Positions 4,330 through 51,471 of a DNA stretch of 64,000 nt are shown here, one piece after another. Source of the stretch: Eledone cirrhosa (lineage: Eukaryota); contig OZ024746.1 of the NCBI GenBank assembly GCA_964016885.1, positions 10,354,001 to 10,418,000 of the forward strand, read 5' to 3'. A program made the translations under genes and the position numbers. Each line of letters opens with the position of its first letter. Within the stretch, counting starts at the first letter, position 1. The notes beneath the pieces were generated by a model. That model was not told the origin of the DNA, did no database searches, and saw only the letters and a program-made list of their open reading frames with translations.

Positions 4330-5486
4330 TACGAGAGTTGACTGAAAGTTTCATAGGCTGACCAAGATACTCATGGAATGTGACCAAATGAGGTTTTTCA
4401 ATATAGTTCCCTTTGCGATCCACACACTTCTTCCATTGGTGTTGCAGTACTTGGATTCCATTGGTGACGAAGCTTTCATCCTGTGGTAAAAAGAAGTCAC
4501 CAACAGCAGATAGATATATCATCATCACTGTGATACTGGTTCCCAGCCAAGTGTTTTTCATGTTGAAGGACAGATGGGGTCAAATCAGGAGAATAAGGAG
4601 GGTGATAAACCAGTTCAAAGCCACAGTCACGCACAGCAGCCATTGAAACCAAGTACTTGTGTGCTGGATGAAACAAGACCACTTTCATCAGTTTTTCTGG
4701 GCATTTGGTCTTAGGAACTGCTTCACCAAATTGGCATGGTACTCTCCATTGATGGTGTGGCTCTTTTGAAGATAGTCAATAAATACAATGTCTTTTGCAT
4801 CCCAAAACACTGAGGCCACCACCTTCCTTGCAGATGAATCAACCTTGGCCTTCTTTGGAGAGGTAAGAAGGGGTGTTTCCACTGTATGGATTGTTTCTTT
4901 GTCTCTAGCTGAAAGTGATTAACCCAACACTCATCCTGGGCTAGGAAATGTTCAAGGAAGCCAGCTGGATCTGCCTCAAACAATGTCAAATTTTCCTGTG
5001 ATGTGAACAATCTGGTGTGCTTTTGATCAGGTGTCAGAAGATGTGGCACCCACTGAGTAGAAACCTTCATCATGCCAAGTTCATTGTGCAGAATATTTTC
5101 AACTTCTCACAGGATAGGCTGATAGCATTGACTATTTGATTTATATTTCACCTGTCGTCCATCACTTTATGGTGAATACATAAATGTTTTCCTCGGTGGT
5201 GGCAGTTGCAGGACATCCAGACATTGGGCCATCTTCAAAACTCTGTTTCCTTCCTAAATTCAGCTGCCCACCTTTTCACTTTTGATAAAGCTGGAGCATC
5301 ATACCCTAATGTAGCAACCACGCCAGCATGATATCCTTGGGGGCTAAACCCTTTTTCTGCAGGTACTTGATAACACCATGATGCCAAATTTTGTCCATTT
5401 TCAAGAGATGTTGCTACTGGTTACTTTTAAAATCTTCTTTGAACAGTCAGACATCATTTTGCTTGGAAAGAAACAATGCAGTTTTA
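4330..5486 (-). mobile_element. Mariner-like transposon, frameshifted transposase pseudogene
   Basis: Minus ORFs with WVPHLLT, QDECWV, KVVASVFWD..IVFIDYL...TINGEY and HPPYSPDLTPS. One terminus is TA|cgagagttgactgaaagtttcatagg; the other terminus was not found. Confidence 0.92.
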
Positions 5487-5935
5487 TTTTTAGATCAAGC
5501 TTTCTAATGAAAAAACTTAGTTATTTTATTAAATTCCTCTAAATAGATAGGCAATGTATTTCATTAGGCATATGGTAATGGATGGGTTAAACAAGCTAAG
5601 CTTATTAGAAATATTATAGTGGAACATGATTAAATATAAAGATTCTTTCATGAGTGTTATTTGATTAACTCTTAACATCCTGTACCACATGAAACAGCAT
5701 TAGCAAGGCATTTTTAAAAATATACAAAAAACACTACATTTAAAAGTCTTTACTTTGATACTGAAAATTTTCACAACTTTCTGTCTACTAGTAATGATAC
5801 TACAAACATTTAAATTAACAAACCTGTTACCTGTTTTATATTTTCTGCTAAATAAATACAGAATTAACTTTGGTCAGCTTCAGGCATCTGCTCATAGACC
5901 AATTATAATTGGGTTAAGTATAATAATTATTATAC

Positions 5936-20946: not shown

Positions 20947-21221
20947 GTACGTTGACCTCTTTTTATTATATTTTTCCTTTACTTTTTTTTCAAATGTATA
21001 ATCAACATTAAGATGTACTAGTATAGCAAGTGGCATTACCTAAATTTCTAAGTTAAAATTAAATGGTTGTGTTGTGAAAATGTCATGATAGTCATTTAAA
21101 AACCCACATACTGATATATTTAATCACTTCAGTTTAATTTGTGATAATTTTGTAATAGAGTTACACCACTGATTTTCCAGCAACCAATTGTTGATACTGC
21201 ACCTCTTATTAACTGGATATA

Positions 21222-22780
21222 AATCTAGCTAAAAGTAAGCCACTCTATTTGGCATTTGTCGACCTTGAGAAAGCCTTTGACAGAGTTCCACGTGCTGTAA
21301 TCTGGTGGGCTCTTAGAAAACTAGGAGTAGATGAATGGCTTGTGAAAGCGGTACAAGCCATGTATAGGGGAGCAGTCAGCAAAGTTAGGATTAGCAATGA
21401 GTATAGCGAGGAATTTAGCGTACAGGTTGGGGTCCACCAGGGCTCTGTTCTTAGCCCTCTCCTGTTCATCATAGTCCTGCAGGCAATAACGGAGGAGTTT
21501 AAGACCGGATGCCCATGGGAACTCCTGTATGCTGATGACCTCGCACTCATAGCTGAATCTATGATAGAACTAGAGAATAAATTCCAAACCTGGAAGCAGG
21601 GACTAGAAAGAAAGGGTCTCAAAGTCAACATGACAAAGACTAAGGTCCTTGTAAGTAGACGAGAAAACAGAACCCAGATCCCCTCAGGGAAATGGCCTTG
21701 CTCAGTATGTAGGAAAGGTGTAGGTAGGAACTCCATTCTCTGCCCCAAATGCAAACAATGGGTACACAAGAGATGTAGCGGGATCTCAGGAAGCTTAATT
21801 AAGAATGTAGGATTCACATGCAGCAGCTGTGCTGAGACAGCAAACAGCCACAGGAAACAAGTACCACCAATCTCTGGGAGGGCCCTGTAGAAACAGTAGA
21901 CAGCTTCTGCTACCTAGGTGACCGAATTAGCAACGGAGGTGGGTGTTCAGAAAGTGCAATAACTAGGGTAAGAACGGGATGGAAGAAGTTTAGGGAACTA
22001 CTACCACTGCTAGCTGCAAAAGGCTTCTCCCTCAGAATGAAAGGCAGACTGTATGATGCGTGTATCCGAACAGCGATGTTGCATGGTAGCGAGACCTGGG
22101 CGCTGAAGGTGGAAGACTTACGTAGATTAGAGAGAAATGAAGCCTGCATGCTCCGATGGATGTGTAACAATAATATACGTGAACGACGAAGCATAAATGA
22201 ATTGAGAGAGAGACTGAGCATAAGAGGAATCAAATGCTGTGTGCAGGAGAGGCGGTTGCGCTGGTATGGACATGTGATGCGTATGAAGGATGACAGTTGC
22301 ATAAAAAGGTGCAGAGCACTAGAAGTTGATGGAAACCGCGGAGTGGGGAGACCCAAGATGACCTGGGATGAGGTGATAAAAGCCGACCTTACCCAATTAC
22401 ACCTCTCAAAGACAATGACACACGACCGTGACTTCTGGCGTCACACAGTAATACAGAGTACCCGACCTCCCATGGGTACAAGCTGAAGCATATAGACAAT
22501 ATGCCCCCCCCCCCCCCCACCGCAAGGTGGTCGTGGAGGTGCCACGGCAAAAAAGCACCCAGCCCACACTGTAAAGTGGACGTGTAGGCGCCACGAAAAA
22601 GCACCCAGCACTCACTGTAAATGAGGTTGGTGTTAGGAAGGGCATCCAGCTGTAGAAATCAAGCCAAATCAGTTCCTGTATGAGCAAGGCATGGTCAACC
22701 GACCAGACACTGCCCACAACAGGACAACCCGTCTAACCCATGCTAGCGTGGAAGAACGGACGTAAAACGGTGAGGATGAT
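21222..22780 (+). mobile_element. RTE-clade LINE, 5'-truncated (RT, PHD-like insert, C-terminus, 3' UTR, (GAT)n-like tail)
   Basis: ORFs 21249..21890 (AFVDLEKAFDRVPR, GVHQGSVLSPLLF, LLYADDL) and 22037..22486 (HGSETW, RRLRWYGHVMRM, RGVGRPKMTW), joined by a frameshift. 3' UTR has aggaagggcatccagc and ends aacccatgctagcgtggaa...gatgat. Confidence 0.95.
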
Positions 22781-22781
22781 G

Positions 22782-23626
22782 AGGGTGCGGACGATATTTG
22801 TTCGCAAGATTACTGTCTAGGAAAAAATAACACAGTAGTTTTATTTTTTAAGATATATTTATCAAACTTGGGTCAGTTTGTCTTCATGACTTGTTCTTTC
22901 GATCTCACTCGATAAACCTGCCATTGGCTTTGATGACGGCCACAAGGCGGCCTCGGAACCGGCTACAGGCCTTCGTCACTGTCCCCCGACTTAGGCTCCT
23001 AAATGCATTTGTGATCCTGGCCTTCAGATTGTCTTTCAAATTGCAGCTAGATCTGTTGGTGTCTCGTTCCACTGCGCCCCACACAAAGAAGTCGAGGGGG
23101 TTGCAGTCAGGCGAGCTGGGAGGCCAGATGTCAGGTGAAGTGTGGTCGACGAAGTTCTCTGACAGCCAGGCTTGGGTCTTTCGGCTGTATGGCAGGGCGC
23201 TGAGTCTTGCTGCCACACGTACGGCCTACCTGCTGCTACCTGGTCGATCCAGGGCTTTACTACCTCGCTCAGAACGCGGATGTAGCCATCAGTGTTCAGC
23301 TTGAGGCCCTCAGGGAAGAAGTGAGGTGGCATGACGACACCTAAGACCAATGTTGTTGCTGGAAACTTTGTCTGCATGACTCTGGGCACGTCTTTGGATG
23401 AGACACCATTCTCCTGCTGACGCTGAGAAAGTCTGAAATTTCCTTATTTGCTCTCCCGGCGCGGATTCCAAGAAGAACTCCGTGTCTCTTCCACAAATTT
23501 TCTGAAAATAAATAATGGAGGAAATATAGTCACTGTTTTTATGAAGACAAGAGTGACAACGGAAGTAAAAAGAAATTGCATAAAATTAGCAGTTGAAAAT
23601 TGCGAACAAATATCGTCCTCACTCTG
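22782..23626 (-). mobile_element. Tc1/mariner DD37D (maT-type) transposon, internally deleted
   Basis: ~26-bp TIRs: agggtgcggacgatatttgttcgcaa (22782-22807) and ttgcgaacaaatatcgtcctcactctg (23600-23626) followed by TA. ORFs with YVWQQDSAPCH and WPPSSPDCNPLDF; 37 residues between the 2nd and 3rd Asp after correcting one frameshift. Confidence 0.9.
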
Positions 23627-45270: not shown

Positions 45271-45303
<33 letters not shown>

Positions 45304-46372
45304 AGGCTACAAAATGTCCTGCAATGAGGCTTTAGCATTAATGTGCATACACCTCAGAAGCAAAATGCATCAGTAATTATTTAAATGTACAGTTGACCAC
45401 CACTTGTATAGTTCTAAATCTAATTCTGTGCAGTAAGATTACATTTTGTGTGAAATACTATGTGTTTACGTAGTAAATGATAGTTAAAAGACTACCTATT
45501 ACAAATGCTTCTCAAACTCAGAGAATATCAAACATAAGGTCATAGCACTTGTCTCAAAGATTTGGGCAATTCTAAAATTTTTTTAAAATCTGAAATGCAC
45601 ACTTAAAATTTTCTACAGAAATAATATGCTGCTACAAAAGGAACTTCAAACAAAAGGAACTTCAAACATCACTGGTGACACCTCGCTATATTATACTAAA
45701 AGAAGAGAAATATATAGAAATATATTTTTGTAAATAAGACAATAGAACCGTGTGCAAATGGAAGCACCAATTGAAACAAGTTTTAAATCTCCGAAGCCGT
45801 TTATGAAAGTATTGAAGAAAAGAAAACACACTTCGATCTTCCGACGTGGAAGAGGCTCCTATCAGAAGAAACCTTCACCGAATCATCATTTTTCTTACCT
45901 GTTGTACAAACCTGTCTAAACACAGAACACTGCACAAACATTCTAAAAGTTCTATAGAGTTATGAAATAATACATATGAATAAGCCATAGATGACGAACA
46001 TCATTAAGTAATGTCAGTTTCATGAGGAGATAAAACGCCTCCATCCTTTTGAAGGAGAAAAAAACAAAAAAAACAATGAGTATAAATCCTGGAAAACTGT
46101 AAGTCTGGTATTGGGGGAAAAAAAAAAAATCACAAGGGATTGACACTTCAAATTCACTATTCTCCTTTTACTTTGCTCCACTTTTCAAATTAAATGACAC
46201 GACTGTTCAGTTATATTCAAATATTGTAGGCGCGTCCATTGAGAATATCGTTACATTGTTTGCGAAAATGTAAAACAAATCTTTATATCCCAGACAGAAA
46301 TGTTGACTTTTATTTCTAGATACTTTTTTTATATAATTGTCTGCTGGTGGATTTTGTATTTCTCTCTATATC

Positions 46373-49300
46373 TAACAAGAGGAAGGCAACAACAACAACA
46401 GTGTCATTAACAACAACAACTCTACCATTAACAAGAGGAAGCCAACCCCAGCATCAGTGACTCACCACCAGCCACTAGGTCCTATGACAAACTGCTCAGT
46501 TGCTCGCATGTGTGCGTGCTGAACTCTGGGTCTTTCTGCTGGGAACAACCCCGTGTTTTCTCCCCCCCCCTTTTTTTGTGTACATCCATCCATCCATTCA
46601 CTCATTCATTTACTGCCATTCTACCTTCCTGTGTCTCCCCCTCCATGCAGCCCCTTTTCGTTCTCGTTTTCTAACACCTCCATATATATAGGTGACCTAT
46701 GTTGCCCTCTTACCAGCACTCTCCCTTCCACCCACACACGCCAGCCACCCACCCCTGATGCCGCTCGGTGCCTCAGTCCCTGGCCCCAAGCCCCATCCCC
46801 CACCCCTCCAAATCGACACCTGCAGCACTTGCGGCACCACTAACAAATGGAAGAGGGGCCGGAACTGTTTGGGGTGCGGCTGCTTCCACCACCTCACCTG
46901 TGTTAGCTTGACTCGTCGAGCTTCCAATGCCCTCGCAGCGTGGAGGTGCAGGAGCTGCCTCTTCCCCACATCTTCCCAGCCACGGCCGTCTGGCACACCA
47001 CCAGGTGAGACAGTGAGCTTGCCTGACGGCCGAGTCTCGCTGGTCAACATCGCTCGGCTCAGGCGGCTCCGGAAGATCCCACTCAGGATCCCGAGAGTGG
47101 CACGGGTGCCGGTAGCCGATGCCCTCGCTTCCTCGATTGAGAGCGCCCTGGACTCCAATTGAGCCAGTGACTGGGAGTGGCTGTTCTATTTTGCCCCACT
47201 CGCCCTCGGCCTCCCCAGCTCTGGCACTGACCGGGGCGGCTGGTCAACAGCAGCCTTCGTCAAGGCCAATGTCTCATCATTTGGGCGAGCGCCCATTCCA
47301 AGTGTGCCCAGGGACACCACACACCCACCCTCAAGTACCCCCTATCCTCCACCCCCGAGGCCAGTGCCAAGCGTTTGCGTGACCAGGTAAACGCAAAGCT
47401 TATCATGGGTGATGTCTCGGCCGCAGTCAGAGTTGTTGCCTCAGAGGACACTGTCCTCCAACCCACCGAGGAATCCTGGCTGCTCTGTGGCTCAAACACC
47501 CTGAGCCACCCACTGATCTCAGACCCATATCCCCACCTAACCCCCACTTGCTCCTTGTGGCTACTGATGCAGATATCATGTCCGCCATCAGGTCCTTCCC
47601 AGCTAGCAGCTGCGGAGGTGTTGATGGTCTCCGACCAGGCCACCTCAAGGAGTTGACATCCCACCTCTCCGCTGAGGCCAGGCACCGCCTTCTGAGTGCA
47701 ATTCTGGCGCTCACCAATAGGCTCATTCATGGTGCCCTCGACCCTTACGCCTGAGGCCTCTTTTTTTCGGCCAGCCTCAGGAAGTCTTCACCGCTCTCAG
47801 GAAGAAAGAGAGTGACATACGCCCCATTGCTGTGGGCAATGTCTTCCAGAGGCTGGCTGCCAAGGTGGTCTGCAAGTCCATCACACACGAACTGGGTGAG
47901 GAGTTTAGTCCGGTGCAACTGGGTGTCGGCGTGTCCAGTGGCTGTGAGGGAGTCGCTCATGCAATCAGGCAGTTCTTCAGCAGCTGCCCATCGGTACCGG
48001 CATCCAGGGACTCCAGGCACCTCATTGTCAAGCTTGACATGAGGAATGCCTTTAACTCTTTACGCCGCGATCATCTGCTCGAGGCCTGCCTCAGCCGAGC
48101 CCCCTCTGCCTACCCGCTGGCCTACCTGTCATATGGAGCCTCGAGCATGCTCCTAGCTGCTGATACGGCCATACCCTCGGCTACTGGGGTCCAACAGGGC
48201 GACCCTTTGGGACCCTTCCTGTTCGCCCTTGGTATTGATCACATCGCCCGGAGTATCATGACCCCTCTCAACGTTTGGTATCTGGATGATGCTACGTTGG
48301 GCAGGCCCGTACGAACGGTCTGCCAAGACCTTCAATCGGTGATTCCTGCCCTGGCGGGAATCGGCCTCCAGGTCAACTCGGCCAAGTTGGAGATGGTGAA
48401 CATCAGCCTCGATACTGCGAGCTTTGCAGCCTCCGTCTTGGACGTGCGGTCCATTCTCCGCCGGGTTCAGGTGACCCGACCCCCAAAGAGGATGTCCTCA
48501 TCCTCGGGTCACCGATCCACCCGCCCACCATCAGGTCCAGGCTTCAACAGCTCCAGACTCTCACGAGCCGATTGGGCGTGATTGACGGCCACCCAGCTCT
48601 CTTTCTGCTGAGGAACTGCTTCGCCATGCCAAAGCTCCTCTATAAACTCCGCAGTGCTCCGTGCTACACCCAGACATCTCTCCTCGCTGACCTCGATACT
48701 TGTATCCAAGCAGCAGCCGAGGCGATATGCAACATCAAGTTTGAGGACATAGGGTAGCAATAGGCCACTTTACCGGTCAGGTATGGTGGCCTTGGCCTCC
48801 GGTCCCCGATCTCACTAGCTTTGCCGGCATATCTTTCGTCGGTAACCTCGTGCCGCGTCCTCGTCAGCAGGGTTCTTCAAAACACAACAGAACCCTCTGT
48901 GTTCAGAGAACGTGAGGCCGCCTGTGAGATGTGGGACTTAGCCCAGTAGATGTCCCTCCTCCTTCTCCCCTTGTTGACGTCAAGTCCCCCCAAAGCACTT
49001 GGGATGCCATCCAGTGCAGCCTGGCCTCGGACAGGCTCACGCGCAAGCTCAACCAGCACCGCCTTGCTTGTTTTCGTGCTCTCATGCCCTGCCCTCCTTC
49101 TCCACTGGCACGCAGCTAGACAACCATAGCCTGCGAATCGGCGTTTCCCTGAGGCTCGGCCTCTGGATCTGCTAGCCACACCAATGTCACTGCGGTACCA
49201 CCGTGGACTCTTTCGGCCTCCACCCGCTTTCCTGTCGCCACAGTGCCAGCCGCATTCCACGCCATGCTGCCCTCAACGAGCTCATTAAGCATGGCTTGGA

Positions 49301-49757
49301 CGCTGCAGGCTTCCCTTCCCAGCTCGAGCCGGTGGGGCTGGATCGAGGGGACGGCAAAAGGCCAGATGACATGACCATTTTCCCGTTCTGCGGTGGCAAA
49401 GCCCTCGTCTGGGATGCCACTTGCACCGACACTTCCTGCAGCCGCAACCTGGTGCAGTCTGCGACTGACCCAGGTTCTGCTGCACATCGGGCTGAGGGGG
49501 CCAAACTCCTCAAATACCGGTCGCTCTCCGACAGGTTTGCGGTCATTCCCCTGGCAGTGGAGACTTCTGGTGTCCTCGGCCCCAGGGCTACCTCCTTACT
49601 CACAACCCTAGGCGTTGAGCTGGCCAGCCGTAGGTGTGAGCCCCGCGAGTTGGAGTGGCTTTTCCAGCGCGTCTCCCTTGCCGTCCTCTGGGGAAACGCC
49701 TTCTCCATTCTGTCCGCCGGGGCTGTGGGTGGGCCCCATCGTGTACCAATACATTAG
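46373..49757 (+). mobile_element. CRE-clade non-LTR retrotransposon (PHD finger - RT - zinc knuckle - restriction-like endonuclease), degraded
   Basis: GC-rich island. Stitched ORF fragments give a PHD (CSTC...CLGC..H..C...WRCRSC), RIPRVAR, SFPASSCGGVDGLRPGHLKEL, RPIAVGNVFQRLAAK, KLDMRNAFNS, GVQQGDPLGPFLF, WYLDD, ATLPVRYGGLGLR, CHCGTTVDSFGLHPLSC, RHAALN, RPD..I...GKALVWDATC, KLLKY and PLAVETSG. Several frameshifts and in-frame stops. The 5' boundary is uncertain. Confidence 0.9.
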
Positions 49758-51471
49758 TTAAATACCATTCTTCCACAGAGACTAGTGAGGGCCTCCCTCA
49801 AATGGAAGCCAGAGATACCCATCAAAACCTGGTTGAGATATGTGGAGAAAGACTGGGAAATGTGGAGCAGGCCCATGGCAGGGCTTGTGACTGTGTGGAA
49901 AGGAGATCTCTCATCACCCAATGTTCTAAAAGAAACTAAAGAGCTGTTTGTAGTTCAATTTATGAGGCACTCAACACCTGAATTGCTATTTGTCAATAAC
50001 CAAGTCCCGAGTCATCTTTTTATAAGATGCAGGCTGATTTTCCAGGACATTTTGGGCTGGGAAAAGTATACCTTATAAGCTATCAAGTACAGTAATTAAT
50101 TATTAACAGTCCACCACAGCATCAAGGGTACTTTTGAATTTTTCCCACTGATCAATCATTGCCCAGGCCTTAGACACCCCAGAAATCAATGGAGCTCGCT
50201 GCAAAGTTCATATTCTGACTAATTTTTCACCTTCAATTTAAGGCGCATTATGAAACATTAGAGGTTGTGTTTTTAACAAGTTTCATTTGTACCCTTGATA
50301 CTGTTGCGGACTATAAAAAAAAGAAGGAAAGGAGCTGATAATCAGAACTGACCATGGAGACTTATGTTTCTATTGATCTTTCTATTGGTGATGCTGGCTG
50401 CTTCTCACAACTTATAATTTAAAGGTTTCTTTTAGTTATTTTTTTTTATTTTTGTATTTTTGTTAATTAGAAATAAATAAAGGTATATGTTTTGTAAGGA
50501 TAGTGTAAAATATAACTGGTTAGGCAAACATTTCTAATCTCTTCTCACTTGTAAATTAAGCATTAATTGAAAAGTCAAAAAGACAATGTAAACATGGTTA
50601 AAAATAAGACATTACTTAATAACAGAATCCTCAAATACCAGAAAGCACCAGGGATAAGTCATTGCTTGATATGTTTATAAAGAATATGGAGAAACCTAAT
50701 ATTATCTATCACAAAAGTGATGTGAATGAGATTTATATCAGACTAAATGAATAGACCTTAAGGTAACTGTGTGAGGAGTTGAGGAATGGATTACTGAGAT
50801 AACTGAAATTCAATTTTACTTACTTCAGTGATGTAATTAGTACTTTGGGTTGAAATGAAGATAGCAGTATGTGTAGGGTCTGAAGCTGTGAAACATTCAA
50901 AATGCTGCTGTTTTATTTGGCAACAAAAGTTGTTCTTTCTTTTAGCTAGATTATATATAAAATAAGAATTGTAATGTTTATAAAGTAGAGGAATTTGCTG
51001 ATTTATCGGTTGAATAGGACCAAATATCTAGTATGTTGGATGTCTAATGCTAACTTTCAAAATATCTTGTTGCTGTTTTTTTGGGTTTTACCCTTTCCTT
51101 ACTACATCATCATCATCATCATTTAACACTTATTTTCCAAGCTAGCATGGGTTAGGCGAGTTGTCCCATTTGAGGTAAGTCAGGTCAGGTGACTGTCTTG
51201 CTCATACACAACTGTTTCTGGCTTGGTTTTTATGGCTGGATGCCTTTCCTAATGCCAACCATATTTAGAGTGTGGACTGGGTGCTTTTTGTCATGGCACC
51301 AACACGACCACTTTACAGTGTGGACTGGGGTGGGTGGGTGTAAAGGTGTGGAAAAAATCGGAAAAATTTAATAAAATGCCTAACATTTTCATTAGTAAGT
51401 TGTTGTTTGAAACATCTTTTAACAAATTATGATAGAAACTTTAATATAAATATGATCACTTTAAAATAAAT

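What the first reader, a model, noticed from the sequence alone, without database searches (positions are those of the whole stretch)
46692..49757. CRE-clade RLE retrotransposon with an N-terminal PHD finger in a cephalopod-like genome
Seen: one ancestral ORF of roughly 1000 codons, now broken. It has C-x2-C-x11-C-x2-C-x4-H-x2-C-x15(W)-C-x2-C at ~46820-46957, RT (QQGDPLGP, WYLDD), GGLGLR, a C-x-C-x9-H-x3-C knuckle and a PD..D..K nuclease. Established: CRE is an early-branching RLE clade whose N-termini usually carry C2H2 fingers, while PHDs are better known from ORF1 of CR1/L2-group LINEs. Inference: a chromatin-reader-guided RLE element, possibly an undescribed family. Its high GC/CpG content against the AT-rich host suggests a foreign or recent origin, though the many lesions show this copy is dead.
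Basis: partly seen in the sequence, partly recalled or inferred. Interest (0 to 1): 0.75.

Follow-up and report, generated by a model that had tools for sequence, protein, structure and literature searches.

The report
PHD-headed CRE-like retrotransposon family
This is a dead copy of a jumping gene scattered in many copies through this animal's genome; its protein starts with a PHD zinc finger that dozens of related elements also carry, and that finger likely grips DNA or RNA rather than reading histone marks.

Summary
Observation confirmed. The window holds one broken copy (6 frameshifts, 5 stops) of a dispersed, high-copy RLE non-LTR retrotransposon. The PHD is no chimera: it is in sister copies, in 40 of 49 long homologues, and folds as a PHD. 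It is strongly basic and lacks the H3K4me3 cage and the Arg2-binding Asp, so histone reading is doubtful; it sits where R2 has its DNA-binding head. RT motifs match SLACS/CRE1/CRE2 by eye, but no tree with named CRE references could be built. Insertions are not site-specific and have a target duplication in 1 of 45. The burst is fairly recent (copies 6.3% apart). Horizontal transfer is not shown: relatives are often GC-rich, and cuttlefish and Octopus carry the lineage. CRE in cephalopods is in print; PHD on CRE was not found in ten paper searches (Repbase not searchable). This scan noted the same family twice before on other DNA of this genome. Most striking side result: barnacle and unnamed relatives carry in-frame USP deubiquitinases of about five types.

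The parts
45301..46757 (+). AT-rich 5' UTR / leader of the element
   Evidence: Shared with L075 from 45301; 9 of 60 copies begin at 45650-45657; shorter copies are nested truncations
46252..46481 (+). 230-bp UTR segment missing in a large subfamily; kept in this copy
   Evidence: Same junction in many copies; one C short of an exact GT-AG splice, so read as a founder deletion
46758..49757 (+). Single ORF of about 1010 codons, broken by 6 frameshifting indels (near 47326, 47472, 47777, 48476, 48932, 49079) and 5 in-frame stops (47160, 47752, 48755, 48761, 49173)
46821..46958 (+). PHD finger (C4HC3 plus Trp), strongly basic
47040..47480 (+). Helical N-terminal extension before the RT (approximate limits); not Myb-like in these searches
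   Evidence: Model of homologue P0001 aligns from residue 88-124 with the region before the RT of L1 ORF2p and R2; tblastn mapping
47799..48398 (+). Reverse transcriptase core (RPIAVG, LDMRNAFN, QQGDPLGP, WYLDD)
   Evidence: Pfam RVT_1 E 9e-14
48485..48948 (+). Thumb/linker with GGLGLR (48785-48802)
49185..49235 (+). CCHC zinc knuckle C-x-C-x9-H-x3-C
49260..49754 (+). Restriction-like endonuclease: RH, E, RPD (49359), D (49413), K
   Evidence: Spacing close to the SLACS/CRE1/2 REL pattern quoted in PMC12857005; whole-length fold match to R2
49758..49775 (+). Conserved 3' end; this copy stops here without tail or poly(A) and abuts an older decayed repeat

Best explanation
This is a broken copy of a dispersed, high-copy, single-ORF RLE retrotransposon, likely of the CRE clade, whose protein begins with a conserved basic PHD finger that likely grips DNA or RNA non-specifically instead of reading histone H3 marks. 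Shown: the domain order, many unrelated insertion sites, PHD conservation across many families, ragged 3' tails, inverted junctions, almost no target duplications, no intact ORF among 40 copies. Inferred: read-through, polyadenylated transcripts from many source copies were inserted by target-primed reverse transcription, often primed inside the tail or from both DNA ends (twin priming). The PHD takes the slot of the R2 ZnF/Myb head and helps hold the target or template. The family burst roughly 9 million years ago (borrowed clock) and has decayed since.
For: Copies: 150 scored of 14403 candidates at 78-90% aa identity; 3' end 40 scored of 3747; flanks of 60 copies unrelated apart from one duplicated pair and common short repeats. 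PHD in 14 of 29 other top copies, 11 of the rest being 5'-truncated, and in 40 of 49 homologues with a long N-terminus. All eight ligands plus Trp invariant in 38 rows (rows chosen for having the finger). Atlas clusters of 201 and 97 members carry PHD and RVT_1 in 36-55% of members; 259 clusters at 50% identity match the head at E<=0.001. Charge: the loop before strand 1 is +1 to +5 in all 46 element PHDs; Trp at His-2 in 6 of 46, acidic residue after Cys3 in 6 of 46, both in 2 of 46; 13 of 15 host PHDs have that Asp. Solved PHDs (KDM5B, Pygopus, CFP1) are acidic or hydrophobic where this one reads NKRKRGRN. Sister lineages fill the same slot with C2H2, CCHC, CXC-like or RFX modules. Whole-length fold match to R2 TPRT structures. 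Tails: 46 of 63 copies fall in eight shared tail groups, several ending AATAAA-spacer-poly(A). Inverted pieces abut the 5' junction in 5 of 79 loci. Mean pairwise distance 6.3%, 3.3% per copy.
Against: No binding was measured. Basic charge is suggestive only, and PHDs can bind other proteins or histone H4. This family has Asp two residues before Cys1, where unmethylated-H3K4 readers have one (recalled), though only 3 of 46 relatives do. No named CRE reference was in the trees. Copies were picked by likeness to this one, so intact or younger copies may be missed. The 15 host PHDs are not verified readers. The 9-Myr figure borrows a calibration from another species.
Confidence: 0.68

Rival explanations
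1. The PHD reads a histone tail (unmodified H3K4, H4 or H3K4me3) and steers insertion to a chromatin state.
For: True PHD fold, with H3 readers as nearest solved structures. Asp two residues before Cys1 in this family. The finger is kept across many families. A separate relative, L134, has a canonical-looking Trp-cage PHD.
Against: Cage Trp 6 of 46, Arg2-pocket Asp 6 of 46, N-terminal acidic residue 3 of 46; net charge +1 to +10 would repel a basic tail. Fold likeness reflects what the PDB holds. No shared target sequence in flanks.
Confidence: 0.17
2. The PHD is a protein-interaction or dimerisation module (host repair factor, co-factor or second element subunit) and binds neither histone nor nucleic acid.
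For: Closest single-sequence matches include Pygopus PHD, with a similar long helix after the His-Cys pair. Double-primed junctions such as L061 could fit a dimer.
Against: The most conserved non-ligand feature is the basic N-x-R-K loop; the slot is filled by DNA-binding-type modules in sister lineages.
Confidence: 0.13
3. The family entered this host by horizontal transfer shortly before its burst.
For: No protein above 56% identity among 120 listed hits, Octopus sinensis elements only 45-51%. The family groups with unnamed rows, not with the O. sinensis rows, at SH-aLRT 92-93. ORF GC of 0.62 exceeds all 28 metagenome ORFs. Two other coded organisms hold pieces 84-97% alike. CRE is rare in other molluscs (PMC10294476).
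Against: Cuttlefish (PHD plus extension, 39%) and O. vulgaris (56%) carry the lineage. The cephalopod rows lie in the same poorly resolved group. Organisms B and C are unnamed and may be close kin. GC-rich ORFs are common in relatives.
Confidence: 0.3

Closest known systems
CRE clade (SLACS, CZAR, CRE1/CRE2; fungal MoTeR1, Cnl1, FoTeR)
   Same: Single ORF RT-CCHC-RLE; REL spacing close to the pattern in PMC12857005. RT motifs resemble SLACS/CRE1/CRE2 and not R4 or Hero in Fig. S6 of PMC7650587 (by eye). A barnacle relative is auto-named 'Retrotransposable element SLACS protein'. CRE type is reported almost only in cephalopods among molluscs.
   Different: PHD head instead of C2H2; dispersed, not in spliced-leader genes or telomeres; target duplication in 1 of 45, whereas PMC3636483 says known CRE make them; 1.4-kb 5' UTR and variable 3' tails.
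R2 retrotransposons (solved 8gh6, 9nl2, 9nl3, 9dou)
   Same: Whole-length fold, TM about 0.54, Z 22-23; same domain order and presumed TPRT
   Different: 16-17% identity; no Myb match found; not rDNA-specific
PHD fingers in CR1/L2 ORF1 and in Chlamys Penelope-like elements
   Same: PHD as an accessory domain of a retrotransposon (PMC4120745, PMC8557442)
   Different: Those are APE- or GIY-YIG-type elements; here the PHD heads the single RT-RLE protein
BLAG non-site-specific R2-like elements of Blattella (PMC7650587)
   Same: About 1000 aa, dispersed, RLE
   Different: CCHH fingers and a BLAG motif that I did not see here by eye; placed near R2 by the authors

Membership tests
RLE (R2-group) non-LTR retrotransposon | Single ORF with RT followed by CCHC knuckle and PD-(D/E)xK nuclease | tested here: met
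   intact homologues of about 950-1050 aa
CRE clade | RT groups with named CRE elements in a tree that also holds R2, NeSL, R4 and Hero | tested here: inconclusive
   Three homologue searches gave no curated reference; trees lack them. Indirect: SLACS auto-name on a relative
CRE clade | RT motif signature of SLACS/CRE1/CRE2 (short LRK..RPI loop, Q-x-GV-G, LD-x-x-NA-F/Y-N, LGPLLF, YLDD) as against R4, Hero, R2 | tested here: met
   By-eye comparison with supplement passages and R2 alignments; not a statistical test
CRE founding members (typical traits; not filed as one of them) | N-terminal C2H2 finger(s) | tested here: not met
   PHD instead; C2H2 in sister rows such as P0120 Cydia, P0111
CRE founding members (typical traits; not filed as one of them) | Site-specific insertion (spliced-leader genes, telomeres) | tested here: not met
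   Unrelated flanks in 60 copies on many contigs
CRE founding members (typical traits; not filed as one of them) | Target-site duplication | tested here: not met
   1 of 45 (L071, about 19 bp); 0.3 expected at that score from mismatched pairs
PHD finger | C4HC3 spacing with Trp two before Cys7, and PHD fold | tested here: met
   Pfam score of this copy is under the cut-off
H3K4me3-reader PHD (BPTF/ING/TAF3 type) | Aromatic cage (Tyr before Cys1, Met/Tyr at Cys3-3, Trp at His-2) and Asp after Cys3 (positions recalled; seen in alignments) | tested here: not met
   This family has Thr, Gly, Phe, Leu there; Trp 6 of 46, Asp/Glu 6 of 46, both 2 of 46
H3K4me0-reader PHD (AIRE/BHC80 type) | Asp two before Cys1 plus hydrophobic strand and Asp after Cys3 (recalled) | tested here: inconclusive
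   First Asp present in this family but in 3 of 46 relatives; the other features are absent
Histone-reader PHD (any type) | Measured binding to a histone peptide | not testable with these tools
   Needs a bench assay
R2 clade | Insertion in rDNA | tested here: not met
   Dispersed copies; no rRNA match in four full-length loci

The most novel reading that the evidence does not exclude
This copy belongs to an undescribed animal lineage of CRE-like retrotransposons that swaps heads (C2H2, CCHC, RFX, PHD) and captures host domains at its tail by read-through. Barnacle and other members have repeatedly fixed USP deubiquitinases of about five types in frame behind the nuclease, most with intact catalytic boxes. 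PHD plus USP would then be a chromatin-engaging or anti-ubiquitin counter-defence kit built into the insertion protein.
Probability: 0.3. Interest if true: 0.75.

Novelty: new variant of a known kind. Interest (0 to 1): 0.42.

Why it matters
It adds a head type to the RLE retrotransposons now mined for genome writing, and it warns that a PHD label need not mean histone reading: this finger looks re-purposed by charge reversal. Intact natural relatives such as P0001 make that testable. The family is also a clean case of an RLE element that spread without a fixed target or target duplications. If the USP-tailed relatives are active deubiquitinases, they point to a ubiquitin-based host defence against these elements. 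The copy in the window is itself an ordinary fossil.

Tried and rejected
Chance chimera: rejected. Spliced 5' UTR intron: the 230-bp gap is one base off a GT-AG splice, and other gaps show microhomology, so read as deletions. 5' ribozyme or other known RNA: none at Rfam gathering score in 4 loci. Intact copy in G000: 0 of 40 full-length ORFs, longest frame 930 aa with internal shifts; the sample is biased. Named CRE references: three homologue searches gave none; paper search for Repbase names gave nothing relevant; two papers sought by DOI (the STITCHR survey and a TE review) are not held, so their text and supplements, and Repbase, may already list this architecture. Expression: no RNA holder listed, which is no evidence either way. 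Organisms B and C show almost no cover of the 5' UTR; a hole proves nothing. USP tails were not found in 80 JGI metagenome loci. The helical extension gave no fold match above Z 5.2 on its own. Atlas feature search of the head gave no usable hit. A PHD-H3 complex prediction was not run: a pass would follow from likeness to solved pairs and a fail is no evidence.

Full report
Observation. Pfam gives RVT_1 at E 9e-14 and PHD at E 0.011, below the curated cut-off. A profile of 38 family rows matches many solved PHD fingers, and the folded head matches PHD structures, best Z 7.2, rmsd 2.5 over 56 residues. The copy is dead: six frameshifting indels and five in-frame stops.

The family in its genome. 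The RT piece finds 150 scored matches among 14403 candidates at 78-90% identity, the N-terminal piece 151 among 5342 candidates, and the 3' end 40 scored among 3747. These are lower bounds, not copy numbers. I fetched 60 copies chosen from the best hits. Their flanks are unrelated, except one duplicated pair and common short repeats. The element is longer than reported: 9 of 60 copies start at window 45650-45657, and one shares sequence with the window from 45301. Forty full-length ORFs differ by 6.3% pairwise and 3.3% each from the column majority; CpG columns change 1.7 times as often as other C/G columns; none of the 40 is intact. With the calibration quoted in PMC13282606 (distance 0.09 = 25 Myr; passages) that is roughly 9 Myr, a borrowed clock. 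The host was not identified here; an octopod fits the named relatives and earlier scan notes.

How it inserted. A target duplication was found in 1 of 45 copies, with 0.3 expected at that score from mismatched pairs; 34 of the 79 loci were left out as duplicates, inversions, or lacking a mapped end. After a constant 3' end near 49775, 46 of 63 copies fall in eight shared tail groups. Several tails run AATAAA, a 10-25 base spacer, then poly(A), and many copies stop inside the tail. I infer read-through transcripts from many source copies and priming inside the tail. Seven of 79 loci hold an inverted piece; in five it abuts the 5' junction, as in twin priming, and in L061 both ends carry the same 3' end and 47-base tail. 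A model of the intact homologue P0001 (pLDDT 90.6) matches R2 TPRT structures over its length. The helical region behind the PHD aligns with the extension before the RT of L1 and R2, so the PHD occupies the place of the R2 finger/Myb head.

The PHD is a lineage trait. It is seen in 14 of 29 other top copies, 11 of the rest being 5'-truncated. Among 120 listed homologues (39-56% identity), 42 match the pattern, including 40 of the 49 with a long N-terminus; 10 of 18 further N-termini that I printed show truncated or degenerate PHDs. In an RT tree of 138 rows the PHD rows form a large group beside lepidopteran elements, of which the Cydia one has a C2H2 head. Named carriers of the lineage are O. 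sinensis, O. vulgaris, Acanthosepion pharaonis (with PHD), Amphibalanus, Cydia, Plutella, Folsomia and a sponge gene. Other relatives fill the head slot with C2H2, CCHC, CXC-like, RFX or a canonical-looking PHD.

Does it read histones? Probably not in the usual way. Where KDM5B, Pygopus and CFP1 fingers are acidic or hydrophobic, this one reads NKRKRGRN. Across 46 element PHDs the loop charge is +1 to +5, the cage Trp occurs in 6, the acidic residue after Cys3 in 6, both in 2; 13 of 15 host PHDs have that Asp. Against my reading: this family has an Asp two residues before Cys1, as unmethylated-H3K4 readers do (recalled), though only 3 of 46 relatives share it; and no binding was measured. I put nucleic-acid grip at about 0.65-0.7, histone reading at 0.17 and protein partner at 0.13.

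Clade. Three homologue searches returned no curated CRE, NeSL, R4 or Hero protein, so the tree test is inconclusive. By eye the RT motifs follow SLACS, CRE1 and CRE2 and not R4 or Hero in supplementary Fig. S6 of PMC7650587 (supplement passages); R2 is distant (16-17% identity). A barnacle relative carries the automatic name 'Retrotransposable element SLACS protein'. I estimate CRE membership at 0.85. Traits of the founding members are absent: C2H2 head, fixed target and target duplication (PMC3636483 passages; PMC12857005 passages).

Foreign origin. GC is 0.60-0.62 against 0.35 for the window and 0.47 for an RTE ORF in it. Relatives range 0.39-0.60, median 0.54 (28 ORFs), so high GC is largely a lineage trait. 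The family does not group with O. sinensis rows, but the region of the tree is poorly resolved. Two other coded organisms of one study hold pieces 84-97% alike; their kinship is unknown. Transfer is open, not shown.

What is in print. CRE types are reported almost only in cephalopods among molluscs (PMC10294476 passages). PHDs are known in CR1/L2 ORF1 and Chlamys elements (PMC4120745, PMC8557442 passages). Ten searches (listings) showed no paper on a PHD-headed CRE or a USP-tailed RLE element; PMC13580325, PMC8967140 and PMC9977147 (passages) and section 3.4 of PMC7650587 did not either. Repbase and two key papers were not available. This scan noted the same family with the same reading twice in this genome and PHD-RFX RLE elements in other genomes; I saw these after recording my reading.

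Side result. Ten of the 142 homologues listed carry a USP domain behind the nuclease, and one more (P0155) has one in another position. The tails fall into about five types by pairwise identity; solved-structure searches name USP2 and USP35 for two of them. The RT tree needs at least three changes of the label. Several ORFs nearly fill their contigs, leaving no room for introns, and the USP2 cluster sits on six Amphibalanus records, four with both RT and USP motifs. Full PHD-RT-RLE-USP proteins with Cys and His boxes exist (P0396, P0400, P0414, P0415). I could not fetch their DNA, none was in 80 JGI loci, and the family in the window has no such tail.

Verdict. A real, well-supported but dead copy; a new variant of a known kind; the histone-reader and foreign-origin readings are not supported; interest 0.42.

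Noticed in passing
Proteins P0022, P0035, P0058, P0067, P0070, P0089, P0136-P0139 and cluster members P0396, P0400, P0405, P0414, P0415: Relatives with a USP deubiquitinase of about five types fused in frame after the nuclease, most with catalytic Cys and His boxes; multicopy in Amphibalanus amphitrite. DNA not seen.
   Followed up: partly
window 45971 (empty here); L036, L038, L050, L054, L057, L061, L066, L069, L073, L074, L084: A SINE-like repeat sits at this one site of the 5' UTR in 11 of 26 copies, with different lengths and flanking duplications: a hot spot or repeated hitch-hiking.
   Followed up: partly
window 21213-22486 and L104-L120: Abundant RTE-type LINEs of this genome carry a basic PHD-like finger inside the protein, just after the RT core; it passes the Pfam PHD cut-off.
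   Followed up: partly
G000:C25:19.3-23.7 Mb: More than 20 near-identical PHD-scoring matches clustered on one contig; probably an array, not examined.
   Followed up: no
L134 (metagenome locus), ORF start: CRE-like ORF with a canonical-looking PHD (Trp at both cage positions) followed by a C2H2-like finger; a better histone-reader candidate than the window's family.
   Followed up: no
P0148, P0153, P0226: Distant relatives carrying an RFX DNA-binding domain (Folsomia), an OTU protease, or a Peptidase_C48 domain.
   Followed up: no
L061:1308-1439 and 5498-5629: Both ends of one insertion carry the element's 3' end plus the same 47-base tail, inverted: apparently primed twice at the same RNA end.
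   Followed up: partly
window 23036-23443 (-) and 4723-5106 (-): Fragments that look like Tc1/mariner transposases by eye; not tested.
   Followed up: no
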